Notes under the pieces: model-generated
Seen by the model: only the letters and a program-made list of their open reading frames with translations
Told to the model about the DNA's origin: nothing
Databases searched by the model: none
Virus record (IMG/VR): IMGVR_UViG_3300037991_002149
Coordinates: 1-34,962 of that record
Origin: a virus
Lineage: Duplodnaviria; Caudoviricetes
Direction: 5' to 3' (one strand)
DNA: 34,962 nucleotides
Shown: positions 2,577 to 33,860 of the stretch, piece by piece
How positions within the stretch are numbered: the first letter of the stretch is position 1
Layout: every line of letters starts with the position of its first letter
Program-made: the position numbers and the translations under genes

Positions 2577-3758
2577 ATGTCAAAGAAAAAAGGAATACCT
2601 GCAGAAAATAGTAACAATTACTTTAAAGCAGGTTGGAAACCTACAGTAGACTTTGACCACACAACAGGTGTAGGCGAAATTACACATGTAGGTACAGACC
2701 CAAACTACGAAAACAAGACAGATGAGATACTTCGTAGTTGGGGATTTGACCCAAAGCTATACGAAATTGATGGAATACTAAAAGTATCATCATGGAACGC
2801 ACAACTTAAAGGCGGTATAGTTGAAACATTCTACGCATTTAAAGGCAGTGTAAGAAGAAAATCTGCAAATCGTGACAAATACTTTAACTCGCTGTTTAAA
2901 CATGCTGTTAAGAAGCCGCCATTACCTAAGCATAAATTGTTTGGTGGTGATACAGCATTCTTTTTCTTTATGTCTGATTGGCAATTAGGCAAAGATGACT
3001 TCGGTGTAGAGAATACAATTAAAAGATATGACATAGCATTGCAAGATGCACTTGCTTTGTTAAAAAACTACAGGAAGATAGGTTACCAAATAGATGAAAT
3101 ATATCTAGTAGGAATGGGTGACCTTACAGAAAACTGTACAAAATTTTTCTACGACAGCCAACCCTACAATGTTTCGTTAAATCTTATGGAACAATACAGC
3201 CTAGCTAGAGCAATGATGTTTAAAACTGTAGAAACATTCCTACCTCATGCAGACAAAATTGTTTTGACAGGTGTTCCAGGTAACCATGGTGAGATGTCAA
3301 GAAGTGCAAAAGGTCAGGTATCAACAAGCAGGTTAGATAATTCAGACACCATGCACATAGAAATTATGAAAGAAATCTTTGATGCAAATCCTGATAGATT
3401 TAAAAAAGTCGAGGTAATAATTCCTGATGATTATCATCTTACGCTTGTGGTCAAAGAAAAGCAGATGTCTTTTACACATGGACACATGACAGGAGGCGGT
3501 GGAAACGCAGAAGCAAAAATAGAAAAGTGGTGGAAAGGACAGATGTATGGATTTCTTCCTAGTGCCAACTCAAATATACTTGTAACTGCACACTATCATC
3601 ATTTTCGTGCTAAGCAACAAGGCGATAGACAGTGGTTTCAATGCCCAAGTTTAGATAAGAGTTTAGATTTTACAGCTAGGACAGGCTTGTGGTCTCATCC
3701 TGGTGTATTAACACTGCTTGTTAATGACAGGGGTGCATCATTCCCTGTCATTGTTTAA
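2577..3758 (+). CDS. Calcineurin-like metallophosphoesterase (Mre11/SbcD-like)
   Basis: Motifs SDWQLGK, GDLTEN, PGNHGE, THGH, AHYHH; strong AAGGAGG RBS. Confidence 0.88.
   Translation: MSKKKGIPAENSNNYFKAGWKPTVDFDHTTGVGEITHVGTDPNYENKTDEILRSWGFDPKLYEIDGILKVSSWNAQLKGGIVETFYAFKGSVRRKSANRDKYFNSLFKHAVKKPPLPKHKLFGGDTAFFFFMSDWQLGKDDFGVENTIKRYDIALQDALALLKNYRKIGYQIDEIYLVGMGDLTENCTKFFYDSQPYNVSLNLMEQYSLARAMMFKTVETFLPHADKIVLTGVPGNHGEMSRSAKGQVSTSRLDNSDTMHIEIMKEIFDANPDRFKKVEVIIPDDYHLTLVVKEKQMSFTHGHMTGGGGNAEAKIEKWWKGQMYGFLPSANSNILVTAHYHHFRAKQQGDRQWFQCPSLDKSLDFTARTGLWSHPGVLTLLVNDRGASFPVIV
3723..3752. terminator. Hairpin at the convergent gene junction (possible bidirectional terminator)
   Basis: aatgacaggg...ccctgtcatt 10-bp stem where the + and - arms meet; immediately followed by TGTTTAAACA. 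Confidence 0.45.
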
Positions 3759-4127
3759 ACAAGCTGTAGCCAATTCTTCTATAGGTAGTAATATGCCTTT
3801 AGAATTATTGTCATCACCACCGACAACATCTTTGTCTGTGCCTACATACTTTCTACATAGGTCTTTTAATACAGCCACAGGGATAATGTAAGTCATTACA
3901 GGTTCATCATCTCTCACTAACATCAAAGCCCAATACTCTGCTTCGGTTACAGATAAGCCACTCTTTGTACCTTTGTATTCGTATTCTACAAAATGATTAC
4001 CTGTCTTTTCCCACAGGTGTCGCTCACTCTTGACTTCAATCTTAGTGCCTGTAAAAAACTCACTCAATTTTTGTTCCATTTCTAAACCTTTTGCTAGGTC
4101 TAAATCAAACTTTTTATTACTGCTCAT
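3738..4127 (-). CDS. PD-(D/E)XK-like nuclease
   Basis: E..L...KIEVKSE...TGNHFVE...SGL..TEAEYW pattern of a common phage nuclease family; likely start MSSNKKFDLDL. Confidence 0.7.
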   Translation of the reverse strand: MSSNKKFDLDLAKGLEMEQKLSEFFTGTKIEVKSERHLWEKTGNHFVEYEYKGTKSGLSVTEAEYWALMLVRDDEPVMTYIIPVAVLKDLCRKYVGTDKDVVGGDDNNSKGILLPIEELATACLNNDRE

Positions 4128-4533
4128 ACCAACAATCCTTACTGCTATTCCAATGATGAGAACCACTGTTGTAATATAACCAACTTGCAGTTTTAATATT
4201 CACGCTTGGGGTCTTACGATTACCCTCAATGTTTAATTTATTTTTAAGCCAAAGCCATGTGTTATCCCAAAATTGAAACAACCCAACATCAGTTGAGTTA
4301 TCTCTGTTTGTATTAACAGCATTTGGTCTGCCACTGCTTTCACAATAAATAATAAGTAGTGCCTCTCTTACATCTTCTTTTTTAAAATAAAGACTTACGC
4401 TTTCTTCCCATTCAATAACATGCGAAACTTTTTCGTTGTTGTTTAAACAAGAGGCATAAGCCTTTATTTCATCTAGTGTTTCTTGTGTTGGCGTTGCACA
4501 CAGTATCAACGAACTTAATACAACGCCATACAT
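4117..4533 (-). CDS. Lytic transglycosylase (SLT/Rpf-like) with N-terminal signal/anchor
   Basis: Catalytic CESSG, DVGLFQF...TW, and SGSHHW...C motifs. Confidence 0.85.
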   Translation of the reverse strand: MYGVVLSSLILCATPTQETLDEIKAYASCLNNNEKVSHVIEWEESVSLYFKKEDVREALLIIYCESSGRPNAVNTNRDNSTDVGLFQFWDNTWLWLKNKLNIEGNRKTPSVNIKTASWLYYNSGSHHWNSSKDCWYEQ

Positions 4534-4928
4534 TAGAACTCTGTACCGCTACTATCTTCGCTCTTAAATGTTTCTTTAAGTAAATCTCTAAGTCTATTTA
4601 CTTCATTCAATCTCTGTGTTTCAAGTTTCTTCATTATCTCGTGTAACTCACCTAACATAAGTGTAGCCTCAAACTTGTCCTCACTATTAACAAAAGTTAC
4701 ATCTATGTTGTATAAATCACCCCAACTAAGATAGATTTCGCCATAAGCACTAGGCAATGCAAAAGACATACCGCCTCTTTCTTTGTCTAATCTTTTAGCT
4801 AACCAATTACTGCTATCAATTTCTAGTTCAGTAAAGATACGAACTAAACCATTAAAGCCATAATCTGTATCGCTTATCTTAGGTTTACTGTCATCATTAG
4901 AATGGGATTTCATCTTGTTTTCTTCCAT
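4533..4928 (-). CDS. Hypothetical protein
   Basis: ORF track; AGAAAGGA RBS upstream of MEENK (4928); TAATG coupling to the downstream gene. Confidence 0.7.
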   Translation of the reverse strand: MEENKMKSHSNDDSKPKISDTDYGFNGLVRIFTELEIDSSNWLAKRLDKERGGMSFALPSAYGEIYLSWGDLYNIDVTFVNSEDKFEATLMLGELHEIMKKLETQRLNEVNRLRDLLKETFKSEDSSGTEF

Positions 4929-5211
4929 TGTATTTCCTTTCTTCAGCAGTAGTGATAATTGCATTGCACCTCACATCTGCCTTGTAATGTGTCTTTTCAT
5001 CTATCTGTTTAAACAAGTAGACACACATTTCATTATCTTGTGTGTCGATTACCAAAGGTCTTTCACTTTGCTTTGGGCATTGCATACCCTCGACAACTAA
5101 CTTACATCTTCTATCTAAAGGCGCAGGTTTATCAAAATCGTGTTCAGGATAACGCACCTTTAGTTTTTCTTTTAATCTTTCTATGTTGATACTTGTATGC
5201 TCTAAAGCCAT
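4897..5211 (-). CDS. Hypothetical Cys-containing protein with SSB-like acidic tail (DEIPF)
   Basis: ORF track; directly downstream of the Sak-like recombinase. Confidence 0.7.
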   Translation of the reverse strand: MALEHTSINIERLKEKLKVRYPEHDFDKPAPLDRRCKLVVEGMQCPKQSERPLVIDTQDNEMCVYLFKQIDEKTHYKADVRCNAIITTAEERKYNGRKQDEIPF

Positions 5212-6107
5212 GAACTAGGAACTTCTCTTTCACCTTTAGAACCAATGTAGCCTCCCCAACCACAACCATTTGATTGTCCATAGTTGGAACATGTAAAGTC
5301 AGGAATGTTTTTAAACTTAACATCACTTTCTTTTTTCTCTCTATTGTCCTCTATGTAGTCAGTTTTTTTACATTGAGGGCATACCTTTGTGTTGTCCTTA
5401 ACCTCGCCAAAGACATCTTCTACAATTTCTTTGTCGCTAGGTTTTTCTACAACTTCTTGTTGGTCTTGTGCTTGTACTTGATAAAACAAGTCTAAGAATT
5501 TATCTAACTCAAAACTTGACCACTTACCCATGTTTGTTTCATGTGTTTGTTTAAACAAGTTCCATGCCTCTAGCTTGTACTTAGTTCTAAGTTCACTATC
5601 TTTTTCAGCATGTTCTAATTCGTTAGTAATTCTTGCTAGGTAATCCTCTTTAGTAGTTTCCTTAACAACTTCTTTAGAAGAATTATCTAATTGTTTTATA
5701 ACTTCTTTAGCCTCTGCCTCTGCATAATGTTCTTCCTCTGTGCTTTCACCTACCCATAGATGTAGCCCAAGTCCAAACCTCATGCAACATCTTTTAATGC
5801 TGTCGCTAACTGCAAGTTTAAGAACTTCGCTTTCGGTATTGTTTTCAAGTTGATACTTACTTACATCACCAACTTCTTCTACAACACCCAAGCCCTCTAT
5901 TTCAAGTCTGCCTTTAGCACCGACAATGGCATTGTCTTTGCCTCGTACTTCCTCAAAAGTAAAGTTGTATTTGCCTCCAATGACTTCTACTAATCTTTTA
6001 GTGTACAAGTGATGAGGAACATATTCGCCATACTTACCCTTTGGCGCAGGTCTTACATCTTTCTTGTTAAAGTCTTTTATTAATTTCTTGTGTGTTTCTT
6101 TATCCAT
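5202..6107 (-). CDS. Rad52/Sak-like single-strand annealing protein with C-terminal Zn ribbon
   Basis: YV......RL..V.G, K.AVSDSIKRCCMRFGLGLHLW (Rad52/22 signature); CPQC...PDFTC...CGW. Confidence 0.85.
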   Translation of the reverse strand: MDKETHKKLIKDFNKKDVRPAPKGKYGEYVPHHLYTKRLVEVIGGKYNFTFEEVRGKDNAIVGAKGRLEIEGLGVVEEVGDVSKYQLENNTESEVLKLAVSDSIKRCCMRFGLGLHLWVGESTEEEHYAEAEAKEVIKQLDNSSKEVVKETTKEDYLARITNELEHAEKDSELRTKYKLEAWNLFKQTHETNMGKWSSFELDKFLDLFYQVQAQDQQEVVEKPSDKEIVEDVFGEVKDNTKVCPQCKKTDYIEDNREKKESDVKFKNIPDFTCSNYGQSNGCGWGGYIGSKGEREVPSSWL

Positions 6108-6310
6108 TTTTTACTATCCTTTTCTATAATTTTGTATACCCTTTGTCTACTTATATTTAAAACATCTGCAATTTCCTGTACTCTGAACCCGCTGTTTAAA
6201 CAGACAGCAATAGCCTTGCTACGATTTGCAATACAAACATCTAAGTTTGCTTTACTTCTCTCGTACAGTTCTTGTGATTGCTTTAACACTCTAATTTCTT
6301 TGTGCGACAT
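6080..6310 (-). CDS. HTH DNA-binding protein (sigma70 region 4-like)
   Basis: VQEIADVLNISRQRVYKII; GGAGGTG RBS. Confidence 0.85.
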   Translation of the reverse strand: MSHKEIRVLKQSQELYERSKANLDVCIANRSKAIAVCLNSGFRVQEIADVLNISRQRVYKIIEKDSKKWIKKHTRN

Positions 6311-6453
6311 TATTCTTTCACCTCCTCGTATTGTGATGATAAAACTTTATGACCTTTCATATTGTTTATGTACATAATTAAAAAACTTACTGCACCCTCG
6401 CCTTGTCTTACCAAGTTCTTAGTGTCAATCTCTATGCCCAAAGTTAATTTCAT
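6310..6453 (-). CDS. Hypothetical 47-aa protein (MKLTLGIEIDTKNLVRQGEG...)
   Basis: Hand-translated; fills the gap, with TAATG coupling. Confidence 0.65.
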   Translation of the reverse strand: MKLTLGIEIDTKNLVRQGEGAVSFLIMYINNMKGHKVLSSQYEEVKE

Positions 6454-6454
6454 C

Positions 6455-6748
6455 TTAGGCAATGTTTATCCTTTCTTGATGTACTTCTACAGGCAATGAT
6501 GTTTCGTATGCCGAAACTTGTATGCTAGGCAATACTTTCTTGTAGGTAATAAGTTTTGTAGTTGTATTGTTAAAGACTTCTAGTTGTTGAAACTGTGCCT
6601 TTGCAATGTCATTTATTTCTATGAGGATAGGATTTTCATCTATAATCTTATCTTCATCAGCGTTGTACTTATACAAAAACGATATAAGACTTCCTACTTC
6701 TAAATTATGAAACCCTCTTGCGTTCTTGTCTGCTTTTCCTACTGCCAT
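6455..6748 (-). CDS. Hypothetical protein
   Basis: ORF track; GGAGG RBS; TAATG coupling. Confidence 0.75.
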   Translation of the reverse strand: MAVGKADKNARGFHNLEVGSLISFLYKYNADEDKIIDENPILIEINDIAKAQFQQLEVFNNTTTKLITYKKVLPSIQVSAYETSLPVEVHQERINIA

Positions 6749-6900
6749 TATTCCTCCTCCTCTATTGCAATCACTTCTGCACTATCTAATGGATTAGAGT
6801 ATGGATTTTCCTCATAACATTTACTATCTTCAATAGCTTGTTCTTTTGTATCACCAAATCCAACTCTACTAACTTTAAATGTAATTCTATATCTAGCCAT
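6748..6900 (-). CDS. Hypothetical 50-aa protein (MARYRITFKVSRVGFGDTKEQAIED...)
   Basis: Hand-translated; GGAGG RBS; TAATG overlaps at both ends. Confidence 0.75.
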   Translation of the reverse strand: MARYRITFKVSRVGFGDTKEQAIEDSKCYEENPYSNPLDSAEVIAIEEEE

Positions 6901-7103
6901 TATTCCTCCTCGTATAATTCTTTAGCAACTTTTAATATGTTTTCGTTATGGTCTTTAACAAACTCATCTAATAGCTCTCTAATTCTTTGTGAGTTTGTTT
7001 TTTTAAGGTGAATTGTTTTTTGTACTTCTTGTCCACCACAAGCATTAGCTAACTTGATAGCCCATGCTTTAAGTAGCTTTGGCTCATCAAATATATTAGG
7101 CAT
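6900..7103 (-). CDS. Hypothetical protein
   Basis: ORF track; GGGAGG RBS. Confidence 0.75.
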   Translation of the reverse strand: MPNIFDEPKLLKAWAIKLANACGGQEVQKTIHLKKTNSQRIRELLDEFVKDHNENILKVAKELYEEE

Positions 7104-7132
7104 ATTTTTCCTCCCTTTACCTATTGTTGTGT

Positions 7133-7330
7133 TTAACTGTTTATTGGTTCTAATTCGTATAAAGAAACAATAAAGTAGTTAGAACCTGTATCTTTTAACT
7201 CTCTAACTTTTTGCCCTGCCTCCTCTTTGGTTGCGAACCTCCATGAGTAAACACTGCTGTCAAAGATTGATACACTCTTAACTAAGTATTTCATACCCAC
7301 TATGGTAACAGGTATTGAATTATACAACAA
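7133..7330 (-). CDS. Hypothetical protein (start uncertain, perhaps MKYLVKS at about 7294)
   Basis: ORF track; FATKEEA motif common in small phage proteins. Confidence 0.6.
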   Translation of the reverse strand: MLYNSIPVTIVGMKYLVKSVSIFDSSVYSWRFATKEEAGQKVRELKDTGSNYFIVSLYELEPINS

Positions 7331-7356
7331 GTATTTACTACGATTTCACTGCTTGT

Positions 7357-7557
7357 TTAAACAGCCTGTCTTTCTTGTTCTAGTTTTATATACTTATCAA
7401 TTAACTTTATGAAACTTCTTACTGCGCTTAACTCTACATCAAGCTCTTTTGTTTCACTGTCCATTTGATGTTGCTCTTTAGCAACAATCTTTTTAAAACC
7501 AATTAATTCTGCCTCCCATTTTTTTACTGCTATTCGTAAAACTTTTAACATTGTCAT
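7357..7557 (-). CDS. Hypothetical coiled-coil protein
   Basis: ORF track; AGGAGGT RBS; stop codon lies inside TGTTTAAACA. Confidence 0.7.
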   Translation of the reverse strand: MTMLKVLRIAVKKWEAELIGFKKIVAKEQHQMDSETKELDVELSAVRSFIKLIDKYIKLEQERQAV

Positions 7558-7639
7558 CTTTCCACCTCCTATTAATTAATGACCATGAAAGCCCTGTTAG
7601 AATTATCACTAAGATAATCCAATACCACCCATAGTTCAT
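7493..7639 (-). CDS. Possible 48-aa membrane peptide (MNYGWYWIILVIILTGLSWSL...)
   Basis: Hand-translated; one TM segment; weak RBS; overlaps the next gene. Confidence 0.4.
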   Translation of the reverse strand: MNYGWYWIILVIILTGLSWSLINRRWKDDNVKSFTNSSKKMGGRINWF

Positions 7640-7645
7640 TTACAG

Positions 7646-7810
7646 TTAGTCATTCTTTTTACTAACCATAAGTTCCATAGGAATTTTTTTACTTGTACGA
7701 CTTTGCAATAAACCCATATTGCGTTTAGGTGATTGTAATGATTTACTAACCATGTACCTTTTGCCACCTTTTTTAGATTTACTTGCTCTGCGTTGTTGTC
7801 TATTAGCCAT
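7646..7810 (-). CDS. Arg/Lys-rich peptide, 54 aa (MANRQQRRASKSKKGG...)
   Basis: GGAGG RBS upstream of ATG 7810; paralogous to the upstream peptide. Confidence 0.65.
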   Translation of the reverse strand: MANRQQRRASKSKKGGKRYMVSKSLQSPKRNMGLLQSRTSKKIPMELMVSKKND

Positions 7811-7919
7811 AAGTTTTTTTGCCTCCATTCATTCTTCCATTATCAGTAGGTCTTTTTAACCCATAGTAATGTCCACCTTTTTTGCTTTTAGCTTTTCTTC
7901 TTTGGTGTCTGTTCGGCAT
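7803..7919 (-). CDS. Arg/Lys-rich peptide, 38 aa (MPNRHQRRKAKSKKGGHYYGLKRP...)
   Basis: Hand-translated; GAGGAGG RBS; TAATG coupling. Confidence 0.7.
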   Translation of the reverse strand: MPNRHQRRKAKSKKGGHYYGLKRPTDNGRMNGGKKTYG

Positions 7920-8095
7920 TATTCCTCCTCATCTAATGGTTGATACCAAACAACGATACTGTCATCTAGTTCCAACTCGTATTGTGATTTATCTGCTAAT
8001 TCTTCTTTAGAGTATGTGCTTGTATATCCCCAATTAGTATGACCATAATTGTTTTCTACATACTCATCTATGTATTCAGTAATATCTCTACCCAT
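7919..8095 (-). CDS. Hypothetical acidic 58-aa protein (MGRDITEYIDEYVENNYGH...)
   Basis: Hand-translated; AGAAAGGA RBS. Confidence 0.7.
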   Translation of the reverse strand: MGRDITEYIDEYVENNYGHTNWGYTSTYSKEELADKSQYELELDDSIVVWYQPLDEEE

Positions 8096-8218
8096 CAATT
8101 TATCCTTTCTATAAAAGTTGCAATACCCAATAAAATTAGGTTATTGACTATGGGCATTAGTGCCACTCAAATTTTTTGAATGGCTCTAATCGCCTTAAAA
8201 TGCCCTGTTGTTTTTTAA

Positions 8219-8566
8219 TTAAGCTGTATTAGGTGCTAACATGCCTATTTCTTTATAAGCTATGTCGGCTAACGAATAATATATAGCTTGTTGATATTTA
8301 TATTGTTCATAGATTTGATAACCTAATTCCTCCATATAACTATCAAGCTTTTCTTTTATTTCTTCGTTAGTCTTACCAAGTTTCTTTAATCTTTGTGCCT
8401 CTAACACTGCGTTTTCGCCAAAATCCACAATTCTTTGTGTAGCAACAGGTTTGATTACCCTGCCATATTCAGCACGATTTACATTCTCTTTGCTGTAAAT
8501 TATGCCTTGTTCTACTAAATTGCGAAAGGTATTTATTTTTAACCCTTTGATTAAGTTATGCGACAT
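8219..8566 (-). CDS. Hypothetical protein
   Basis: ORF track; GAGGAGG RBS. Confidence 0.8.
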   Translation of the reverse strand: MSHNLIKGLKINTFRNLVEQGIIYSKENVNRAEYGRVIKPVATQRIVDFGENAVLEAQRLKKLGKTNEEIKEKLDSYMEELGYQIYEQYKYQQAIYYSLADIAYKEIGMLAPNTA

Positions 8567-8590
8567 TTGTCCTCCTCTATATTTTTGTGT

Positions 8591-8661
8591 ACAGCTACCA
8601 CTATAGTTGTAGATATTTATTTTATCAATAGATATTTACTATAATGGTAGCTGTTTAAACA
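8591..8661 (-). other. 17-bp stem hairpin abutting a TGTTTAAACA site
   Basis: acagctaccactatagt (8591-8607) / actataatggtagctgt (8638-8654); the one mismatch is G-U on the minus strand. Confidence 0.75.
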
Positions 8662-8810
8662 AAGACCTTTTGATACTTGTCTAGGTATGACACACTTCTG
8701 TCAAGCAGTCGATATGAGTTATAGACTTCGACTAGTCTTGCTATTTACCGATTAGCGTTTCCTTACCCCTACTAATCGTTCAAGGCTCTCTTTAATAAGT
8801 GAGGGCTTTA

Positions 8811-9310
8811 TAGATAGCTTGTAACACACAGTTGGTATAGGCGTAACAGTATTTACCATTATGTTGCAACTGCCTTTGACTATGTATTACAAGCTACCTA
8901 CTTTCAGTCGGTCAGCAACAGGGCTGTATTTAGCTTACCTCCTACTCATAGATAGCTTGTAACACACAGTTAGCGTACCAAACTGGAATTACATTGTTTA
9001 TATGGTAGTTCACGCCTCTAGTTCTAAGCTAGAGTTTCCAACCTTATGCATTCCTATGTGCTACAAGCTACCTACAAAATTAAACGAGATAATGTACTTC
9101 GTGTATGCGCTTGTTGGTTATCATACTTTGAGTACCCTAGCCGAGAGGTACATTAGTTCGTTTTTGTAGATAGCTTGATAGTATCTAGCTTACTTTCCCT
9201 ACCTGCGTATTTTGGGCTTACCTGTCGACAGTTTTTATATCTCTATAAAATACAAGGCATTGTCCGCACCTAAGCTAAGACTTTTCTGCCGATACTATCA
9301 AGCTACCTAC
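8811..9310 (-). ncRNA. Array of three inverted-repeat-flanked cassettes (TAGATAGCTTG...CAAGCTACCTA); putative processed structured RNAs
   Basis: Units 8811-8900, 8949-9074, 9166-9310; 20-22 bp stems; 24-bp direct repeat atagatagcttgtaacacacagtt at 8810 and 8948; no credible ORF. Confidence 0.65.
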
Positions 9311-9314
9311 CTGT

Positions 9315-9482
9315 TTAAACAAGTAGGTCATCACTTCGTGTCAAGTACATGTAATGGCATAAACCTTGTTGACATGTGTACTCAATCTTATTTTTTTCTT
9401 GATTGTATATTTTAATGTAAACATGATTTTTGATTTGCCATTCTGTAATTGTTTGCTCACAAAATGAACATTGTATTTCCAT
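9315..9482 (-). CDS. 55-aa putative Zn-finger protein (MEIQCSFC...TCQQGLCH...)
   Basis: Hand-translated; AGGAGGT RBS; stop lies within TGTTTAAACA. Confidence 0.75.
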   Translation of the reverse strand: MEIQCSFCEQTITEWQIKNHVYIKIYNQEKNKIEYTCQQGLCHYMYLTRSDDLLV

Positions 9483-9495
9483 TTATACCTCCTAA

Positions 9496-9712
9496 TATTT
9501 TTACGAGTAACTTAGTGTTTGATTGCAATTTGCCTTTTCAAGCGCTGTTCTTTGCAGGTAGTTTCGATAAGCTCACTATGGAATGAGGCAGTAGACTATT
9601 GGTAAGTATTCAGTGCCATTGGATAAATACAAACCTCACTAAAGCGTACAACAGGTAGTTTCTTTTGCGATACTATGAACAAGTACGAACCACTAAGCTA
9701 CTCGTAAAAATA
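9496..9712 (-). ncRNA. Stem-enclosed non-coding cassette (22-bp stem, 173-nt insert)
   Basis: tatttttacgagtaacttagtg / cactaagctactcgtaaaaata; insert carries caggtagtttc twice. Confidence 0.55.
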
Positions 9713-9786
9713 CTATTTATGCTCTTTGTTTAAACAAAGCGAAGGGGATAGTCGAGGCAACAACTATCCCAATCGCTATACATTAA

Positions 9787-10002
9787 TTATGTGTTTTGAC
9801 TTTCAGGCACAAAACCATAGAAGAAACCTTCCATGTAGATTTCTTTGTTGTCTTGTAGCCAACTAGCAACATCACTAGGTACTAATTCTAGTAATTGGTT
9901 GAAACTAGCCATGTTAATTACGCCACTATCTCTAACAATAGAGATTGCCTCGTACACATTGTCAGGGATAACTAACTTACCCTCTGTTGTTTTGGTAGCC
10001 AT
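9787..10002 (-). CDS. Hypothetical protein
   Basis: ORF track; AAGGAGG RBS; VRDSG..NM motif resembles DUF5049-like small phage proteins. Confidence 0.75.
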   Translation of the reverse strand: MATKTTEGKLVIPDNVYEAISIVRDSGVINMASFNQLLELVPSDVASWLQDNKEIYMEGFFYGFVPESQNT

Positions 10003-10027
10003 TTGTCCTCCTTTATAGTTACCACAA

Positions 10028-10051
10028 TGCTGTCTGTTTAAACAGACAGCA
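10028..10051. repeat. Perfect 24-bp palindrome centred on TGTTTAAACA
   Basis: tgctgtctgtttaaacagacagca. Confidence 0.95.
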
Positions 10052-10062
10052 CTAGCTAACTA

Positions 10063-10260
10063 CTAATTTTTTTCCTTGTCACTAACAATAGCTTTTAACT
10101 CTTTGTCAATGACATTACAATTAATAGTATGTTGTTTTTCGATTTCTTGATAAGTTTTATTCCAAAGATTATTTAATAATTTATCTTTTAAATCTATTAG
10201 CTCTTCCTCATCAAGTAACTCTGCACTTGCATGTAGAGTTTCTATAATCTTGTTTAACAT
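10063..10260 (-). CDS. Hypothetical protein
   Basis: ORF track; GGGAGG RBS. Confidence 0.75.
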   Translation of the reverse strand: MLNKIIETLHASAELLDEEELIDLKDKLLNNLWNKTYQEIEKQHTINCNVIDKELKAIVSDKEKN

Positions 10261-10270
10261 TTTGCCTCCC

Positions 10271-10414
10271 TTAATAGTCTGTATCTTCTAACCAAAGAAC
10301 TCTTAAAAAATCTTTTCCAAAAGCCTTTGTTAGTTTCTTTCTTACATCATCAATATTAGGATTAAAGTCTTTGCCGACCTCGATACCTATCTTGACAATT
10401 CTTTCTTCAGGCAT
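10271..10414 (-). CDS. Hypothetical 47-aa protein (MPEERIVKIGIEVGKDFNP...)
   Basis: Hand-translated; AAGGAGG RBS. Confidence 0.75.
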   Translation of the reverse strand: MPEERIVKIGIEVGKDFNPNIDDVRKKLTKAFGKDFLRVLWLEDTDY

Positions 10415-10440
10415 GTTGCCTCCTTACCTTTATTGTGTTT

Positions 10441-10663
10441 GATAAGAGTTTATAGAATAGGCTGTTGCCCTCCTTACTTGATAGCAAGACTTACATATTG
10501 CAATCGCTGTACTATCTTCTTGGCAACTTAGTTTATCAATCGCTCTCTCGTTTTGTTCTTCTAACTCTTTCACATTTGCGATACTTACAATCGCTGTTGT
10601 TAGCCATTCCAAAACAAACTCGTTCTTTCGTATCAAAACCTGCCTATTCTATAAACCCTTACC
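10441..10663 (-). ncRNA. Stem-enclosed cassette (22-bp stem, 179-nt insert with 3 x CAATCGCT)
   Basis: gataagagtttatagaataggc / gcctattctataaacccttacc; both mismatches are G-U on the minus strand. Confidence 0.55.
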
Positions 10664-10741
10664 CTACATTAAGTTAGTAATTACCTTGTTGTAACTACTA
10701 TAAACCTCGCTGTTTAAACAACGAGGTCTAACTAATTACAA

Positions 10742-11152
10742 TTAGAATGGCGGTTCGTTTTTACTGTCATACTTACTTGTACTATCAGTATTAACAAACA
10801 ACTCTGCATAATCTAGCTTGGATAGTGTGCGCTTTGCTTCTTCCATAGTTAGAAAGTGCTTGTCTTTTGGATTACCGCAATCGGTATCTTCCATAGACAC
10901 GCCAAAGTTATGATTAGATACAGTTGAACTGTTAGCTAGTCTTATATCTCTAAAGAATAAGTCATCAGTTAACCCTGCTCTATGAACTTTGATACTGTCC
11001 TCTATGTATCTAGTGTCTACATTGATACCTAGTTTGCCATTAAGTGAACGCCATTGCTGTAACGCATGGTCATTACTCTCTGCCGAAACTATATGTACAT
11101 CAATAAACTTACTAAATACACATTTAGCTTGAACTACATATTGTTCTACCAT
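10742..11152 (-). CDS. Hypothetical protein ending in NEPPF
   Basis: ORF track; AAGGAGG RBS. Confidence 0.8.
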   Translation of the reverse strand: MVEQYVVQAKCVFSKFIDVHIVSAESNDHALQQWRSLNGKLGINVDTRYIEDSIKVHRAGLTDDLFFRDIRLANSSTVSNHNFGVSMEDTDCGNPKDKHFLTMEEAKRTLSKLDYAELFVNTDSTSKYDSKNEPPF

Positions 11153-11238
11153 TTAATGCCTCCTTAATATTGTGTGAATATTTATCTGTTGATAAATATC
11201 GTTGAACGCTCATTGTTTAAACAAGCGCTCTACGATAC

Positions 11239-11949
11239 TTATTGGTAATCTTTACGCAATTTAAGCGGTAAGTCTACAACTGTAGAAGAACCACAAGCCA
11301 TGCAACGAAAGTTATCGCCAACTTTCTTGTACACTGCCATAGATACTCGACTAATTAAGCCGAAACCCTGCGCAATAGATTTGTCACTAGCACCGACACA
11401 CGCCTCTGCACCTGTACATTTGACCGCAACTGTAGTTGAACCTGCACCCTCTCGTTGCTTGATAGCATAATGAGGAAGTAAGCCTAACTCCTTGATGAAG
11501 TCCTGTATAAGTAGAGTAAACTGCGCACCTGCAACTGTTGCTGTAGGAATACCCTCCGCACCTAGATAATCCATAATGATTTTCTTAAAGCGGTTGTTAT
11601 GTCCTGTACCAACAGGCAATATTGCATGAGTTACCTCGTGTGCAACAATCTGCGCTGTTTCGATACTGTCGGCAAGTGAAGTGCCTGTACGAGTAGGGCA
11701 TATAAAGATTTCTCTAACATCTCCCTCGCTGTGTTCTTCGTAATGACATACGCCAATAGCTTTGGCATTACCTTTTGGCATAAAGCCCATAGATAATTTG
11801 ATGACATCACGCTTAACTTCGCATACAAACTCTTCTTCGATTTTATCGTAGATAAAGTCTGCAACTTTGTTAAGCCATTCTTCACGATTACCTTTGAAGA
11901 AATGAATTTCTTCTTGTGTATCTGTACTAGATTTCTGTTTAGTTTCCAT
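11239..11949 (-). CDS. SprT-like zinc metalloprotease with C-terminal Zn ribbon
   Basis: AIGVC, EIFI.P, AHEVTHA (HExxH) followed by GH...F; C-terminal C...C...CMAC; AGGAGG RBS. Confidence 0.8.
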   Translation of the reverse strand: METKQKSSTDTQEEIHFFKGNREEWLNKVADFIYDKIEEEFVCEVKRDVIKLSMGFMPKGNAKAIGVCHYEEHSEGDVREIFICPTRTGTSLADSIETAQIVAHEVTHAILPVGTGHNNRFKKIIMDYLGAEGIPTATVAGAQFTLLIQDFIKELGLLPHYAIKQREGAGSTTVAVKCTGAEACVGASDKSIAQGFGLISRVSMAVYKKVGDNFRCMACGSSTVVDLPLKLRKDYQ

Positions 11950-12338
11950 TGTGTTTGCCTCCTATATATTTACTATACACTTACAAAAATTATAAGTGTA
12001 TTTCTTATTGCTCATTGTTTAAACAAGCAATAAAAAATATAAGGCATAAATAGAATATGCGAACAGTGTCTAAGGCGCTTTGTTTCTGTTAGATTAGTGC
12101 AACTGTTGTCTAATGATTTCTGTAACTAATCTTTTTTCGCTAGTGTTGTTGTTTTACGCTTTTCAGCCAATCTTCGCTAGAAGTAGAGTTCTTACCGATT
12201 ACACTCGGTCGTTCTCTATGGGATTTAGCGCCTGTATTTAGTATTTAATTGAACAGCGCCTCATCTGTACTTGCCTCGAACACTTTCTTAGGCTTTTTTA
12301 AGTAGTTGTCTAAGTCCAACTCTATTGTGTTATTAATA

Positions 12339-12366
12339 ACATTACTAGGTCTGTGTTTTATGCCAA
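12339..12366 (-). promoter_or_regulatory. Candidate early promoter TTGGCA-16-TAATGT
   Basis: The minus strand reads TTGGCA taaaacacagacctag TAATGT, upstream of the early arm with an AT-rich region further upstream. Confidence 0.35.
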
Positions 12367-12628
12367 CTTATGTTGACATATTTGATAAAAAATAATTAGG
12401 TGGAAAGCCTATAAACATTGACTATTTCAGGTGCATGAAAAATTATTTATTTTTTTACAAAGAAATCTTCAATTTGCGGTGTCATTTCTTAGGCGTAACT
12501 TTCTGCGCCTAAGATTTTGTTAGGTGTTCCTGTTGGAATTTTAACCGATAATATTTTGCCGATATTAATGTTTGTCTATCCCCTTACTGTTACTGTTTAA
12601 ACAACTGCCAATCTTTACCAAACTGTGT

Positions 12629-12688
12629 ACACAATATGTTGTGGTACTATATATAGTGTGCATACCTACACAACACAAGATGTAGGCT
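12629..12688. promoter_or_regulatory. Three NrdR-box-like palindromes
   Basis: acacaatatgttgtgg (12629), gtactatatatagtgt (12644), acacaagatgtaggct (12673) against the consensus acaCwAtATaTwGtgt. Confidence 0.55.
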
Positions 12689-13120
12689 TGTAGCCTATAA
12701 ACACAAGGGCTTGGGGTAGGGTTTAATGTGGGGGTGGTCGTTATTTATATGTGTGTACTCTTAAAATATGCTGTTAACTAGGCAGTAAAATAGCCCTCTA
12801 AAGTGCTTGTTTAAACACTTATAGTGATTATCTTAAATAAGTAGAAACTTAATACAACTAACCCTGTGTCATCCCTCCCAACCGATAACAAATCTGTTTA
12901 TGACTTATTGTAAATATATGAAGTAATAGCCTCTAACGCTAGTTACTATGGTCAGGCAAGTCCACTTTATTGAAGTTCTTATCTGATAAATCTTTTCTAG
13001 TGCCTGAAATCTATCATGTTTGTTTTTCTACTATACCATAAAATTATTTTATGTGGGGATTTCCTTACAAAGTAAAGGAGGAAATCTAAGTAAAAAAATC
13101 CCTATCTTATTTTACAGGTA

Positions 13121-13129
13121 TGTTATAGT
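13121..13129 (+). promoter_or_regulatory. Extended -10 promoter TGtTATAGT
   Basis: Same element recurs at 13263 and 13516. Confidence 0.5.
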
Positions 13130-13262
13130 GGATGTTAGGAATATTCATTTTCCTTTCAAGGACATGTTTAGCCCTTTCTATTGTGTATACGAAATGGGTG
13201 TGACAGGCAACTGCTACACCCATTAGTATTATCAAAAAAAAATTTTTTTTACACCTACATTC

Positions 13263-13271
13263 TGTTATAAT
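13263..13271 (+). promoter_or_regulatory. Extended -10 promoter TGtTATAAT
   Basis: Consensus match, with an A-tract/T-tract palindrome upstream (13234-13250). Confidence 0.6.
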
Positions 13272-13276
13272 AAATA

Positions 13277-13514: not shown

Positions 13515-13515
13515 G

Positions 13516-13524
13516 TGTTATAGT
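13516..13524 (+). promoter_or_regulatory. Extended -10 promoter for the late/packaging operon
   Basis: TGtTATAGT upstream of the AGGAG RBS and ATG 13551. Confidence 0.55.
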
Positions 13525-13550
13525 GATAAGAAGCAACCACAGGAGTTAAA

Positions 13551-18651: not shown

Positions 18652-21600
18652 TGCGTAGATATTCTTTGCGTTATTCTTTAGATGATTTAAAAAGACAAGC
18701 AGCACAAGAAACATATAATCGTGCAAGTTCTTTTGATAAAGGTGTAAGAGAAACAAATCCTGACTTAGTACAAAATATTGCTAACATTACAAAAGCATAT
18801 CCTACAATTCCTAAAGAAGTTTTACCTTATATGGCATTAAGCGGAACTACTGCAGAAGATGAAATTGCTTTGCAGGTAGCAAATAGAGCAGCATCTATTA
18901 TAGCAAAAAAGAACACAGAAAACCTTGTTACAGATGTCAACTTTTTAAAAAGAGGTGTACAAATGGGTTTCTTAGGACTAGATGCTGTATTCCAAAATGT
19001 ATCAAGAGGTTTTAAATCTGCAGTTGTAGCTGCACAAGAAACAGGCAAATGGTTGCCTGGAGTTGTAGCTAATGCAACATTAGGTGGATTGTATGAAACA
19101 TTTAGACCACAAGCAGAAGGCGAGGAAGGTAGTTCTACAGCTAGATACTTAAATAACATATATGGCGGTGGTGTAGGGGATGTGTTTAAACAGACACGAG
19201 ATAAATATGGAAAGAATGAGTTTCGTTTAGCTTTAGAACAAACTAGAGATGGTAAACCATTAAATTTAGGTACAGGATTTTTACCTAAGTCATTAGACCC
19301 TAAAGAAACACAAGTGTACTTAGATATGCGTAGAGCAGGTAGAAGTGAAAGAGAGGCATTAAGTAGAGCTGTAGAAGTTTATGGACTTCCTGTTACACAG
19401 TTGTACGACAAAAGAGAAGATGCTTTTAAATACGAAGCAAAAGATGGAACAAAAGTAAATATATCGCCAGGTCGAATAGCGGCAGTACAGATATTTGAAC
19501 CAGGTTCTACAGGATTTAGTGTTGTATCAGGTGTTATTGATGGTGTATTTAGACTTGCAGGTGACCCAACGAACTTAGCGTTGATGTATGGTGCAGGTGT
19601 AAAGACAGCAATGAGAACTATGGTACAAGCTAATAAACAATCTAAAAATGCTGCAACATTGTTTAAATCTTTTGTACCTGGAAAAACAGGTAAATTTAAT
19701 CGTGCTGCTTTTTATGGTAGAACAGTAGATGATGTAAGAAGCACAGGTTGGGGTCAAAAGTTTGGTGAAGCTATTGCAAAATTAAAAGGTGATGAAGGTA
19801 GAGCATTTTTAGATGACATTAAAGAATTTGACAATGTTCCTGCATCTGTAAAAGAAGTATTGTTACATGTTGATGATGCTGATGATGTATGGAACATATT
19901 AGACATAGTTGCTAAGAATGGTAACTTAACAGGCAAAGAGTTTGACAACATGTTTAATTTAATTAAAAAATATGTGTCTGATGATGTTGGTAAAAACTTA
20001 GACAGAGTTAGAGAAGCAAGTGTAGAAAACATTGCTTTTGGTTTAAATAACATTCCTGCAAGACCTACAGCTATGGGCGAACTATTTAATTATGCTAACA
20101 AACTTATGACAGGTAAAAGTACAGATGTTGCACCTATGAGAAAGTTTGCAGGTTTATTACTATCTAAAGACGACCCTGCTAGAGGATTGCTAGGTACAGG
20201 AACACAGTTAGCTAGAACTAAATTATTTCCTAGACATGTAAAAAGAGCAATGCAACTTAGACCTGAAACAATGATGGTTATAGATGATTTAGAAGCAGCA
20301 TCAAGAAATGCTAACGATATGTTAAAACTATCCTTTGCTAGTGCAAAAGAAAGAGGTTATTACTCACGATTAGTTTTAACTGCTACATCTCAAAAAGAAT
20401 TAGAAGAAATAGCGTATCAAATAAATCAAGCAATAGCTAAAAATGTTTCAGATTACAACCCTAATTTAAAAATAGATGTTGAAGATATAATGAAGCAACA
20501 AGAAAGTTACAACGCACAAATGAATGAATTAAGAGATTTTTTTGGAAACTCTGCAGGTGGTTCTATAGCTTTTAATGGAACACAAATTAAAAAAAGATAC
20601 AAAAAACTTATTAAAGATGTCGAAGAACATTTTAAAGCAACAGGTATAGAAGTTAATCCTGATGATGTAGAAAAATATATATTTGAAGCAGTGCCGAGTA
20701 TGCACTTATTATCACAAGCATCTAAATCTTACATGGCACAACTTATAGACCCAAGAGATATAGTACAAGCTACAAGAGCGCATCAAACATTAATTGCACC
20801 TACAGAAAAAAGACTTACTACATTGTTTGATAATTTAAATATATTTAACGAAAATGCTGCGGACATGAAATGGGCAGATAGATTAAAAATACCTAGAAAA
20901 GCATTTGTTGGAGGTTATTCATCAAATCGATTGACATTAAAACCAAAAACAATGTTAGATACAATACTTGATGAAACACAGAATAAAATATTAAAACCTG
21001 CGTGGATGTTTAGATTAGCACTACTTATGCGTATTGCACCTGAAGAAGCAGCTAGAGCGGCATTTGGCGGATATGTCAATGCGTGGTCACATCCTTTACA
21101 AAGATTAGCTATGGTATCTAATAAATATTTAAACTTTGTTGGTGATGTAAAGCGTGAAGATAAGATATTCCAATTACGCAACAATTTAGGTCACATTGTA
21201 TTTACAGGTCACATGGGTACTGATGACTACAAAAAATTAGCAGAGTTAATAGATGAAAAAACACTTAAAAACTTTTTAGCTATTGAATACCCACAGATAG
21301 AAAAATTAGTTAAATCTTATATGTTAGAAACAAGTTATACAGGTCAAGTATCTGATTACATGATTAACGCTGCAATAAACAATCAAAGTTTAAAAACATT
21401 TGTTAGAGAAGCAGTACAAGAAAGTAAGTTGTCTATAGGCAGTAAACAAATAAATGCTAAAGCAAAAGGAACAGTAGTTGGATTTGATAATAAAACAGAG
21501 TACGCATCTATGGGTGAAGCGTTAGTAGAGGGTGGAGGTTTTAGCATTGATTTAGATGCAGCAAAATTCCTAGACATGAAAAAAAGAGTGCCTTCTGATG

Positions 21601-24600
21601 CAGAGGTATTTGTTTCTCCATACAAAGAATTTGAGTTTCCTTTAGGAACTGCTGCTGAAGTACAAGAAAAAGCAGCTAAAGTAAACATGACACCAATAGA
21701 GTGGGTAGATAGTCAAATAGACAATTTATTTTTTACAGATGAAACTGTAGGTTTACTAAGCAAAGATGGTCATGTATTAGGTGCATACATAGATGATGAT
21801 GGTATTTTGATGTTAGATGTGTCTGTAGGATTAAGCGGAGAAAACGCTATAGACAATGCAGTATTTATGGGTATTAATGCTTTTCAAGAAAGTATTTATG
21901 TAGGTCAATCAGGCAGACAAGCTGCTGTACAAGCAGGATATGGCAATGTAATGACATCTGATGGTTTTATAAGCCTCTATAGAAAAAAAGCAAAAGATGG
22001 AGAAATACTTAAAGGTGGTGCTGCTGCAATAAATTATGACAGTGTTATAGCAAAAGAAGTATTAGAAGTTTTGTATAAAAACAATTTTGATGCTTTATCG
22101 CTAACAATAGATGATGTCAAAGGTGCAGGTAGAGGTTTGCCTAATGGTAGTTTGTTTAGTGCTGATGAGGGATATAGAGCTGCAATGGGTGAACAAAATA
22201 TTACAGAGGGTTTAATAGGCACTAGAAAAGATTTAGTAGAAAACTTGTTTATTAGAACAGATAAAAGATTAGCTAATGGCAATATAAATCCTTATTATTG
22301 GGAAGGATTGTGGACAGAGATTGGAGAACTTCTTGCACCTGACCCTATAACAGTAAGGTTGTTAAATCTAGGAATTGATGACATGATGGAGTATTTACGC
22401 ACTAATCCTACAGGTAAAAATTTAATTAAAGAATTTGTAGAAAGAAGTCACAATGCAGATGATATAGCATTTTTAACTGATGATGCAGCACTAAGAAATT
22501 ATTTAGAAAGTATAGAATACAGAGTAGGTATTGCAGTTGGTAATCCTACAGCTAAAATGCGACATCCTATTGCAGGATATGAACTAAGTCCTGAAAACAC
22601 AAGTCAAGTGTATTGGGTAAATAAACAAAAAGTATATCCTAAATTTGAAGTAGATTTATCTGTTACTGCTAATACTAAACTGTTTCAATTTATTAAAAGC
22701 GGTGGTTTCTTAGAAGGTAAAGATTGGGTTCGTTGGAAAAGCCACATTAACACACTTAGCAGAAAAAAAAGAGGTAAAGCTAATCAAGATTTTTATGAAG
22801 AATTTATAAAAGTATTTACAAAAGAAGTAGATGGTGCAGATTTAGGTCCTCAAACTATACCAAGAAGATTTGATTTAAAAAACAGAATTAATAATGATGG
22901 AACAATAATTGCAGGAGAAGAAATTGTTGCTGCAGGTGCTATGGATGATTTAGCATTTTCAGAGGGTATGGCAAGTTATGATAGATTATTAGAAACAGGT
23001 TATAACACATTAATATCAAAACCATCTAATTGGCTTAATCGTGACCCATTGTTTAGGCGTTCTTTTTATACAACTGCAGTAGAAGTTATGGCATATATGG
23101 ATGATGCAACTACAGCAGAGTTTATGAAAGGTGCAAAAGTTTGGATAGAAGGTACAGATATGTGGGATGATTTACTTAAAGCATCTAAACAACCAAAAAT
23201 AGAAAATACTATAACTAGCTTAGAACAAGCAGAAACATTACTTAAACATAAAGCAATGGAAGATGTTAAGAATTTGTTTTACTCAACTTCACAACGCCAT
23301 GTAGCATCAGACTTGTTTTCTAAATACATACCATTTCCTGAAATATGGGCAGAGGTATTTAAAACATGGGGTGGATTAATTGTAGACAATCCACATAAGT
23401 TTAACGCTACAAGAATAGCTGTAGATAATGGTGCAGGTGCTACACCATGGAATGATGAAAATGGTTTTCTATCAGAAGACCCAAGAACAGGCAAATTAAT
23501 GTTTAATTATGTAGATGCTTTTAATGTCATAACATTTGGTGCTTTTAAAGGTTTAGGTAAAGTTGCAGAAATGTCAGGATTAAGAGATGCGTTGCCTGAT
23601 ATTGTAACATCACCATATCAAACAACAGTATTTGGTGAAGATTTACAAGATGAAGGTGTAAGAGTTGCTGCACCTGGATTTGCTGCAGGTCTTAACCTAG
23701 TTGCACAAAATGGTTTTGCACCTGGTTTCGGTCCTGCTGTACAAATACCTATGAAATTTTTTATAGACAAGTTTGGTAGCACAAAAGCATTTCGTAAATT
23801 CTTTTTAGGTGAGTATGAAAGTTCAGGACAACTTAAAGACATTGCACAACCTGCATGGTTAAAAAAGTTTAGATTATTTTTATCAGGAGAAAACATTGCA
23901 GACAAAGATATGCAGAGAACATTTGCATCTACTGCTATGGATATATATACAGCTTATGTACTTGCAGGTATTGTAGACCAATCAGACCCACAAAGCGTAA
24001 GAGAAGGTGTAGAAAGAGCGACAGAACAAGCTAGAGCAGTATTTGGTTTTAGAGCAGCAGCACAGTTTGCATTGCCTACTGCTGTACAACCAAGAATAGA
24101 AGTAGAAGATAAAGATGGTCAATGGTGGGGTGTACAAACATTAGTCAATAAATATCAAGAAATGTTAATTAAGAATGGTTATGACCACTTTACAACTCAA
24201 CAAGAATTTATAACTAAATTTGGTGTCAATCCTATACCGCTAAAGCAACCTGGAAGTTATAGAGTTGGTAAACAACCTATTAAAGAAAATTCTTTTATAT
24301 GGTGGCAAAAAGATGAAAACAAAGAGTTGTTAAGACAAAACAATTTACCTAATACTGCATATTACATTTATCCTGACAAAATAGAAGATGAGTTGTTTTA
24401 TCCTGCTTACTACGAAACAAGAGCGCAGAATATAACTACAGGAGAGTTTGCATCATTTATGCGACATACACAAGCTATATTTGAATACGAAAAAGGTAAA
24501 GCAGATATACGAGATAATGGTAAAACCACAACAGAACAAAACAAAGAAATATCAGATTTAAAAAATCAAATAAATGATGAATATCAAATTGATATGTTTA

Positions 24601-27507: not shown

Positions 27508-27622
27508 AGTTCCTGTTGGAGATTACAGTGAATTACCTGAAGATTTACAAAAATCTTTTAAAGAAGCAAGAGAACAAATAGATAAAACATTTAATGAGCA
27601 AATAGCAACAGACAGGAAATAA
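27497..27622 (+). CDS. Hypothetical 41-aa protein (MIIKVPVGDYSELPEDLQK...)
   Basis: Hand-translated; fills the gap. Confidence 0.55.
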   Translation: MIIKVPVGDYSELPEDLQKSFKEAREQIDKTFNEQIATDRK

Positions 27623-27625
27623 AAC

Positions 27626-33842: not shown

Positions 33843-33860
33843 ACTGCTTGTTTAAACAAC

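What the first reader, a model, noticed from the sequence alone, without database searches (positions are those of the whole stretch)
2893..12817. TGTTTAAACA palindrome tiled about every 0.6 kb across the early arm
Seen: 16 exact copies between 2893 and 12817 (gaps 214-1298 bp, most 500-860), but only 3 in the 22 kb of late genes. A rough expectation at about 33% GC is 0.15 copies per window. Copies fall inside genes in different frames (LFKQ/H, CLN, V-stop) and between genes, so codon use does not explain them. Inference: sites for a dimeric DNA-binding protein. Possibilities are stoperator-like silencing as in mycobacteriophage L5, a host nucleoid/partition protein coating or pulling the first-entering DNA, or a methylation/decoy motif (the core is the PmeI site GTTTAAAC).
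Basis: partly seen in the sequence, partly recalled or inferred. Interest (0 to 1): 0.85.

Follow-up and report, generated by a model that had tools for sequence, protein, structure and literature searches.

The report
Phage DNA word, zinc-ribbon reader
This marine phage writes one 10-letter palindrome 19 times into its genome, even into protein-coding sequence, and the word is likely the docking site of its first-made protein, a protease-like protein with a zinc-ribbon tail, because across unrelated phages the word comes and goes with that gene and changes its spelling where the tail changes.

Summary
Confirmed: 19 exact TGTTTAAACA (0.3 expected), 16 evenly spaced in the early arm, written into codons by selection. 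Four of 4 near-complete relatives with the gene have 14-20 copies; 6 of 6 without it have 0-1. The core GTTTAAAC, or GTGTAAAC, is enriched in 7 of 9 cultured phages and 67 of 81 viral loci chosen by the protein alone. The scan has noted this pairing in at least 13 other genomes; my paper searches did not find it. Added here: where the tail's Q-x-x-R arginine is replaced, four phages tile CTTTAAAG or ATTTAAAT instead (one clade); this window's clade has Thr there and a stricter 10-mer (111 of 118 against 31 of 74); the protein is predicted to dimerise (0.47, best control 0.00). Intergenic copies also sit in the loops of RNA stems that exist without the word in sister phages. Best reading: a self-limiting repressor or roadblock array, working like stoperators but not a member. 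Binding and function are untested.

The parts
2893..12817 (.). 16 exact TGTTTAAACA sites at 2893, 3752, 4440, 5006, 5548, 6193, 7354, 8652, 9312, 9727, 10035, 10711, 11214, 12016, 12594, 12808
19183..33858 (.). three late-arm sites: 19183 and 27203 inside genes, 33849 upstream of the scaffold/capsid genes
11239..11949 (-). first early gene, 236 aa: SprT-like HEXXH metalloprotease domain (about residues 17-160) plus four-cysteine zinc-ribbon tail (about 170-236); likely reader of the sites
   Evidence: co-occurrence
12016..12025 (.). site 67 bp upstream of the SprT-like start codon; the matching site lies 61-96 bp upstream in most of the clade
11191..11246 (-). site 11214 in the loop of a long RNA stem, 16 bp after the SprT-like stop codon (-24.8 kcal/mol sense, -15.0 antisense)
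10688..10743 (-). intergenic RNA stem (about 21 pairs, one mismatch, one bulge) with site 10711 as its loop (-26.2 sense, -15.1 antisense)
10012..10067 (-). intergenic RNA stem of the same shape with site 10035 as its loop (-27.7 sense, -18.6 antisense)
6080..6310 (-).
12880..12883 (.). probable physical genome end: contigs of 4 of 4 runs stop here; the first site (12808-12817) is about 65 bp inside
   Evidence: contigs only, a hint

Best explanation
The 19 palindromes are kept by selection on the DNA and are likely binding sites for the phage's own first early protein, an SprT-like protease with a zinc-ribbon tail, which is predicted to pair up and would clamp the early arm about once per gene and turn early transcription down, its own gene included. 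Shown: the sites, their excess, their even spacing, their cost to codons, their co-occurrence with the gene, and the change of spelling with the tail. Predicted: the homodimer. Inferred: direct binding to double-stranded DNA by the tail's beta-hairpin (about 0.85 on its own); entry of the early arm first; repression or roadblock as the outcome. In temperate relatives (Arthrobacter cluster AZ, Microbacterium cluster EH) the same pair would be the immunity repressor that has not been found; in this phage, with no integrase found, it would be an early-to-late switch or a holding state. The RNA stems around the intergenic copies are a separate, older layer, likely RNase III processing stems, whose loops house the site at no cost.
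For: Near-complete relatives: 4 of 4 with the gene have 14-20 copies, 6 of 6 without it have 0-1. 26 of 26 loci fetched with the protein carry sites. A scan with the DNA word alone gave 100 loci at 29-52% GC; 51 of the 80 listed ones show an SprT-like gene (some loci overlap). Cultured phages picked only for the gene: 7 of 9 enriched (Venkman 34 vs 2.2 expected, Pan1 7 vs 0.11, R26L 8 vs 0.22, ECO1230-10 5 vs 0.7; GTGTAAAC in Floof 9 vs 0.19, Maureen 17 vs 0.52, Crosby 38 vs 1.6); the 2 without (LK3, Dismas) have lost both Q-x-T-R and the second-strand R. Loci picked by protein only: 67 of 81 enriched at p<0.001, reversed control word 0 of 81; at 70% identity 21 of 26 with Q-x-T-R against 1 of 8 without, p=0.001. 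Of 5 of these with no Arg at that place, 3 tile CTTTAAAG (18, 28, 25 copies; under 0.4 expected), 1 with Asn tiles ATTTAAAT (6 vs 0.03), 1 shows no related word. A site lies within about 80 bp of the likely start of the gene in 6 of 7 motif-bearing cultured phages. 6 of 40 representative homologues lack HEXXH yet sit among 15-33 cores, so the tail suffices for the array. Homodimer: score 0.47, best of 3 controls 0.00; this mark was reached by 20 of 30 solved pairs and 1 of 23 single chains; runs agree in at least 93% of contacts, pLDDT at least 83; own alignment used; interface includes tail residues 198-223. Maureen (intact gene) forms turbid and Liebe (truncated gene) clear plaques, and no AZ repressor is known (bioRxiv 10.1101/2025.05.26.655371, section 14 read); Floof is turbid with an integrase and no repressor found (PMC7302621, passages).
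Against: No binding or repression was measured. This window's own clade breaks the simple code: it has Thr where others have the Arg (alignment) yet keeps the outer G. The four changed-word phages are one clade (58-70% identical), so they count as one or two events, and the strict 10-mer clade is a single event too. 5 of 26 Q-x-T-R representatives show no enrichment in the DNA held. In the protein-picked set only 6 of 22 enriched loci have a site within 250 bp upstream of the gene (2.4 expected). Few early sites overlap a recognisable promoter, and sigma-70 matches are no more than chance (30 vs 41.5). No tyrosine or large serine integrase in 5 of 5 records, so immunity is not the obvious use here. 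The catalytic residues H104, E105, H108, H117 are invariant among 99 homologues, which a plain repressor would not need; the Liebe lesion is in the protease domain, not the tail. Even spacing may partly reflect gene length.
Confidence: 0.52

Rival explanations
1. Same reader, different job: the sites tether the SprT-like protease along the entering DNA so that it cuts host proteins that land there (silencers, restriction or other defence proteins, cross-linked proteins).
For: HEXXH and the third His are invariant in 99 homologues; best fold match is human SPRTN, Z 8.0, rmsd 3.4, 100 aligned; even spacing and in-gene sites suit coverage better than promoter control; Crosby has 38 sites over the whole 50 kb read; the window has no GATC, ACGT or GGCC at all, a sign of strong defence pressure.
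Against: Homologues without HEXXH keep some of the densest arrays (6 of 40 representatives, 5 of them one clade); a site just upstream of the gene itself points to feedback control.
Confidence: 0.27
2. A conserved host protein (nucleoid, partition, GntR-type regulator, methylase or restriction enzyme) reads the word, and the SprT-like gene only travels with it or acts on the recruited protein.
For: TGT-N-TA-N-ACA resembles GntR/HutC operators and the core is the PmeI site (both recalled, not tested); no host genome could be reached.
Against: Hosts span four or more bacterial groups with one core; sisters without the gene have none; the spelling follows the phage protein.
Confidence: 0.07
3. 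The word is read as an RNA hairpin top (UGU-UUAA-ACA) by a translational repressor or nuclease.
For: Four intergenic copies cap stems that fold much better on the sense strand; 14 of 21 pairs change on both sides and the pair next to the site is U-G in 13 of 19; several copies lie between ribosome-binding site and start codon.
Against: The same stems occur with unrelated loops in motif-free G005 and G007; 4 of 10 window copies folded on the sense strand do not stand out from shuffles (z -0.3 to -1.2); the non-palindromic GTGTAAAC lies in both orientations in Crosby, 21 to 17.
Confidence: 0.05
4. The sites are recombination joints for swapping early gene cassettes by the Rad52-like Sak protein.
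For: Some relatives share one flank of a site and differ at once on the other (window 9727 against L118:11538 and L121:11788); contig joints skip cassettes near 9727.
Against: Copies inside core genes and in the late arm cannot be cassette joints; Sak is in motif-free sisters. More likely a by-product.
Confidence: 0.04

Closest known systems
Operators and stoperators of Cluster A mycobacteriophages (L5 gp71, TipsytheTRex repressor; PMC9283540, abstract and introduction read)
   Same: About 20 short exact sites spread over a phage genome, many at gene junctions, proposed to be read by one phage protein that also controls its own region.
   Different: Those sites are 13-bp, asymmetric and oriented with transcription, read by a monomer with two HTH-type domains in temperate phages. 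Here the site is a palindrome, 8 of 19 copies lie inside genes, the likely reader is a predicted dimer of a protease plus zinc ribbon, and no integrase was found.
SPRTN / Wss1 / SprT DNA-dependent metalloproteases (PDB 6mdx)
   Same: HEXXH plus third His, zincin fold (Z 8.0), followed by a small zinc-binding domain.
   Different: Those bind DNA by structure, not sequence (recalled); here the tail is tied to an exact word whose spelling changes with it.
SprT-like protease of Arthrobacter cluster AZ phages (Lizalica gp46, Maureen gp49; bioRxiv 10.1101/2025.05.26.655371, section 14 read)
   Same: [quoted passage not shown]
   Different: They name no binding site (their repeats are 'data not shown'; supplements closed) and expect SPRTN-like repair; Maureen has 17 GTGTAAAC, one 39 bp before gene 49.
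RNase III processing stems between early genes (T7-type, recalled; general features in PMC5389636, passages)
   Same: Long intergenic stems with an internal mismatch or bulge on the sense strand of a polycistronic early transcript.
   Different: Here some loops carry a fixed DNA word; cleavage was not tested.

Membership tests
Cluster A stoperator system | asymmetric 13-bp sites oriented with transcription | tested here: not met
   10-bp palindrome; the non-palindromic variant lies both ways in Crosby, 21 to 17
Cluster A stoperator system | reader is an HTH-plus-stoperator-domain monomer | tested here: not met
   the window's HTH gene does not track the motif; the tracking protein is a protease plus zinc ribbon, predicted dimer
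Cluster A stoperator system | about 20 or more sites in promoters and short intergenic gaps | tested here: inconclusive
   19 sites, 9 intergenic, 2 on stop codons only, 8 inside genes
Cluster A stoperator system | temperate phage with integrase and immunity | tested here: not met
   no PF00589 or PF07508 match in 5 of 5 related records, controls rang in 14 and 2 of 14 genomes; AZ and EH relatives do have integrases
Cluster A stoperator system | bound sites block initiation or elongation | not testable with these tools
   needs in vitro transcription or a reporter
SprT / SPRTN / Wss1 proteases | HEXXH plus third zinc ligand | tested here: met
   H104, E105, H108, H117 invariant in 99 homologues
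SprT / SPRTN / Wss1 proteases | SprT protease fold | tested here: met
   6mdx Z 8.0, rmsd 3.4, 100 aligned, tied with archaeal minigluzincins at Z 7.4-7.8; Pfam SprT-like below cut-off for the window protein, E 0.005
SprT / SPRTN / Wss1 proteases | zinc-binding domain homologous to the SPRTN ZBD | tested here: inconclusive
   tail folds as hairpin, helix and zinc ribbon; no listed match above Z 3.1
SprT / SPRTN / Wss1 proteases | DNA-activated cleavage of DNA-bound proteins | not testable with these tools
   needs an assay
RNase III processing stems | stem of about two helical turns on the transcribed strand, kept by compensatory change | tested here: met
   81.6% of cells paired, 14 of 21 pairs changed on both sides, above slid controls (the 19 rows were hand-picked as hairpin-like); sense strand 4-11 kcal/mol more stable in 4 of 4
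RNase III processing stems | staggered cleavage leaving 2-nt 3' overhangs | not testable with these tools
Host-read signals (parS, HIP1, GntR operators, restriction sites) | word enriched in the host chromosome | not testable with these tools
   no host genome reached
Host-read signals (parS, HIP1, GntR operators, restriction sites) | presence and spelling independent of any phage gene | tested here: not met

The most novel reading that the evidence does not exclude
SprT-like phage proteins are a widespread, undescribed class of sequence-specific DNA readers with a one-residue recognition code (Arg reads the outer G, Asn an A, small residues a C), built as a protease dimer clamped to self-marked DNA; they silence the phage genome, are the missing immunity repressor of several temperate actinophage clusters, and use the protease as the switch or as a guard against host proteins.
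Probability: 0.35. Interest if true: 0.88.

Novelty: new variant of a known kind. Interest (0 to 1): 0.72.

Why it matters
It gives a testable function to a common 'SprT-like protease' of phages (164 records in the cultured collection) and a named site for it, in phages that can be grown (Venkman, Maureen and Liebe, Crosby, ECO1230-10). It offers a candidate for the repressor that has not been found in clusters AZ and EH. The change of word with one tail residue makes direct recognition testable with a single gel shift, and would add a small zinc-ribbon DNA-binding module with predictable specificity.

Tried and rejected
HTH gene, PD-(D/E)XK-like nuclease 3738-4166 and transglycosylase 4117-4533 as readers: each occurs in motif-free phages, and the last two are missing from motif-bearing L042. 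Depletion of one-mismatch neighbours: 1 seen against 5.2 expected, but motif-free G005 (2 vs 5.8) and G009 (1 vs 3.6) look the same, so it is not specific. Host genome: two scans of bacterial genomes found no relative; Actinomarina as host is a guess from weak terminase hits to Streptomyces phages (23-25%), low GC and marine runs; PMC7771536 (passages) describes other phages. Promoter scan gave fewer matches than shuffles. No tRNA and no Rfam family near threshold in 7500-14300. The tail alone found no fold match: Foldseek none at E<=0.001, VIA best Z 3.1, sequence search of solved structures best E 0.07; this does not show the fold is new. NCBIfam named none of 8 proteins, the 2134-aa virion protein included. 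Polarity of the outer bases in relaxed clades (more x..A than T..x) may be strand composition; not pursued. Paper searches for the word or the pairing (listings only) found no description; the Venkman preprint has no mention of motif, palindrome or SprT and PMC7302621 none of SprT or the word in its main text; figures and supplements were not seen, and most subscription papers are not in the library.
Full report
The window is the whole record: about 35 kb of a roughly 40-kb podovirus-like phage found in marine metagenomes. Late genes run rightwards from 13.6 kb; a string of small early genes runs leftwards from 11949. Contigs from 4 of 4 runs stop at 12880-12883, which hints at the physical genome end there (contigs cannot prove an end). 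The host is unknown.

Observation. It is as described: 19 exact TGTTTAAACA, 16 in 2893-12817, against 0.14-0.96 expected under orders 0-5 and 0.33 with sites masked. Every GTTTAAAC core is flanked T..A. Spacing is more even than random (CV 0.42 against 0.91, p=0.00045), as in 7 of 8 related loci tested, which are not independent. Selection acts on the DNA: 7 of 7 compatible peptide words are spelled with the site (0.74 expected), the words are 20-fold in excess, and orthologous HTH and transglycosylase genes keep C-L-N as TGT TTA AAC A while the flanks drift. This happens in a genome with no GATC, ACGT or GGCC.

Which gene goes with it. Among near-complete relatives, G001-G004 have 19, 20, 14 and 17 copies and carry the first early gene; G005-G008, G014 and G015 have 0-1 and lack it. 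G009 (78% complete) has 2 copies and no match to the gene; G010 (72%) has 0 copies and was not searched whole for the gene. The HTH, nuclease, transglycosylase and Sak genes do not track the word; the small gene 10742-11152 tracks it inside this clade only. The first gene encodes an SprT-like HEXXH protease with a four-cysteine tail.

The link holds far outside the clade, from both sides. A scan with the DNA word alone returned 100 loci of 29-52% GC; 51 of the 80 listed show an SprT-like gene. Nine cultured phages taken for the gene alone gave 7 enriched, for GTTTAAAC (Venkman, Pan1, R26L, ECO1230-10) or GTGTAAAC (Floof, Maureen, Crosby); for Pan1, R26L, Floof, Crosby and LK3 I read 26-50 kb, not the whole record. 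The two without (LK3, Dismas) have lost the conserved tail residues. Of 81 IMG/VR loci taken for the protein alone (80 of 378 found, plus one), 67 are enriched and none for the reversed control word; after merging at 70% identity, 21 of 26 with Q-x-T-R and 1 of 8 without (p=0.001; an earlier count had six mistranslated rows and is superseded). I reached this pairing; the scan's notes, read, show it in at least 13 other genomes. They are not independent evidence.

The spelling follows the tail. In the 8 representatives without Q-x-T-R, L312 (K-K-T-Y), L347 (Q-A-T-S) and L349 (Q-K-T-A) tile CTTTAAAG 18, 28 and 25 times (under 0.4 expected), L361 (Q-R-T-N) tiles ATTTAAAT (6 against 0.03), L308 (Q-N-N-R) GTGTACAC (6 against 0.11), L343 (Q-K-N-R) GTGTAAAC, and L301 and L333 show no related word. 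Arg with G and Asn with A are the classic base contacts (established knowledge). The four changed-word phages share under 1% of 15-mers but their proteins are 58-70% identical and group together, so this is one or two events. A look-up in the scan's notes for such a code returned nothing. The window's clade is its own variant: Thr stands where the Arg is, the second-strand R201 is invariant, and the word is a strict 10-mer in 111 of 118 cores, against 31 of 74 in the Q-x-T-R sister clade, both picked by protein; one origin on the tree. It keeps the outer G, so the simple code does not hold here; another residue must read it, if the model is right. A few Q-x-T-R proteins have Tyr for the second-strand Arg and keep dense arrays; the word was lost only where both were lost (2 of 2).

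The protein is predicted to form a symmetric dimer: score 0.47, best of 3 controls 0.00, a mark reached by 20 of 30 solved pairs and 1 of 23 single chains; contacts agree at 93% or more, pLDDT at least 83, own alignment used; the closest contacts join the two tails. That suits a palindrome but shows no binding.

A second layer. Four intergenic copies (10035, 10711, 11214, 12016) cap long stems that fold better on the transcribed strand. Over 19 hand-picked stems, 14 of 21 pairs change on both sides and the pair beside the site is U-G in 13. Motif-free G005 and G007 have stems of the same family with other loops. So the stems are likely RNA-processing signals of the RNase III type (inferred), and the DNA word has taken their loops, where a palindrome costs nothing.

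How it likely works. The early arm would enter first and the SprT-like gene is first in it. Its product would dimerise and occupy a site about every 0.66 kb, from 65 bp inside the end, including 67 bp before and 16 bp after its own gene. I put repression or roadblock at 0.52, because protease-dead homologues keep the array, the gene is flanked by sites, and in cluster AZ a truncated gene goes with clear plaques. A tethered protease that clears host proteins is the main rival (0.27): the active site is invariant, sites sit inside genes, and this phage has no integrase found. The two can be combined. In the protein-picked set the upstream site is less general (6 of 22, 2.4 expected).

Comparison. 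It works like the stoperator arrays of Cluster A mycobacteriophages but fails their defining features (asymmetric oriented site, HTH monomer, temperate). The protein is a member of the SprT family by its catalytic domain. The AZ preprint predicts a DNA-binding tail but names no site. My searches found no description of the pairing; supplements and subscription papers were not seen. Verdict: real, selected, and likely part of an undescribed phage protein-DNA system; new variant of a known kind; interest 0.72.

Noticed in passing
window 8580-9340, - strand: 760 nt without long ORFs that folds into nested 20-26 bp stems closing inserts of about 100-120 nt (z -7.5); no Rfam family near threshold. 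Looks like small RNAs cut out by RNase III; the same stem word recurs five times in motif-free G007 near 16.3-17.0 kb.
   Followed up: partly
window 12880-12883: Contigs of four runs stop here with little or no overlap: probable physical genome ends with a very short overlap.
   Followed up: partly
whole window and G001, G003-G009: Complete absence of several 4-base palindromes (GATC 0 against 97 expected, ACGT 0, GGCC 0 in the window); the set avoided differs between relatives.
   Followed up: no
window 18651-25055, 25055-26569, 27626-31504 (+): Three large proteins (2134, 504, 1292 aa) with no PHROG, Pfam or NCBIfam name, probably ejected virion proteins; the 2134-aa one is shared full-length only with motif-bearing G003 and G004 among the distant records.
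   Followed up: no
L242:4142-4711 and kin (L182, L183, L220, L236, L239, L254): Freshwater-type actinophages with a WhiB-like gene carry an SprT-like homologue without HEXXH and 25-33 cores; L200 and L231 appear to hold only the 76-aa tail.
   Followed up: partly
L168:6600-12000: 13 cores in a record whose two halves look like different phages (IMG/VR: inverted terminal repeats); no SprT-like gene in the 12 kb held.
   Followed up: no
L017 and L018; L020, L027, L033: Motif-free relatives have other repeated words (CATATGCATA 5 times; GGTTAATCAA 4-6 times).
   Followed up: no
L301 and L303: SprT-like loci without the TTTAAA word have other enriched 8-mers (AATGTGGG 7 vs 0.12; GTCCACAC 8 vs 0.24), possibly further spellings.
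   Followed up: no
window 9727 against L118:11538, L121:11788, L120:3743: Relatives share the left flank and differ right after the site: cassette exchange at the word.
   Followed up: no
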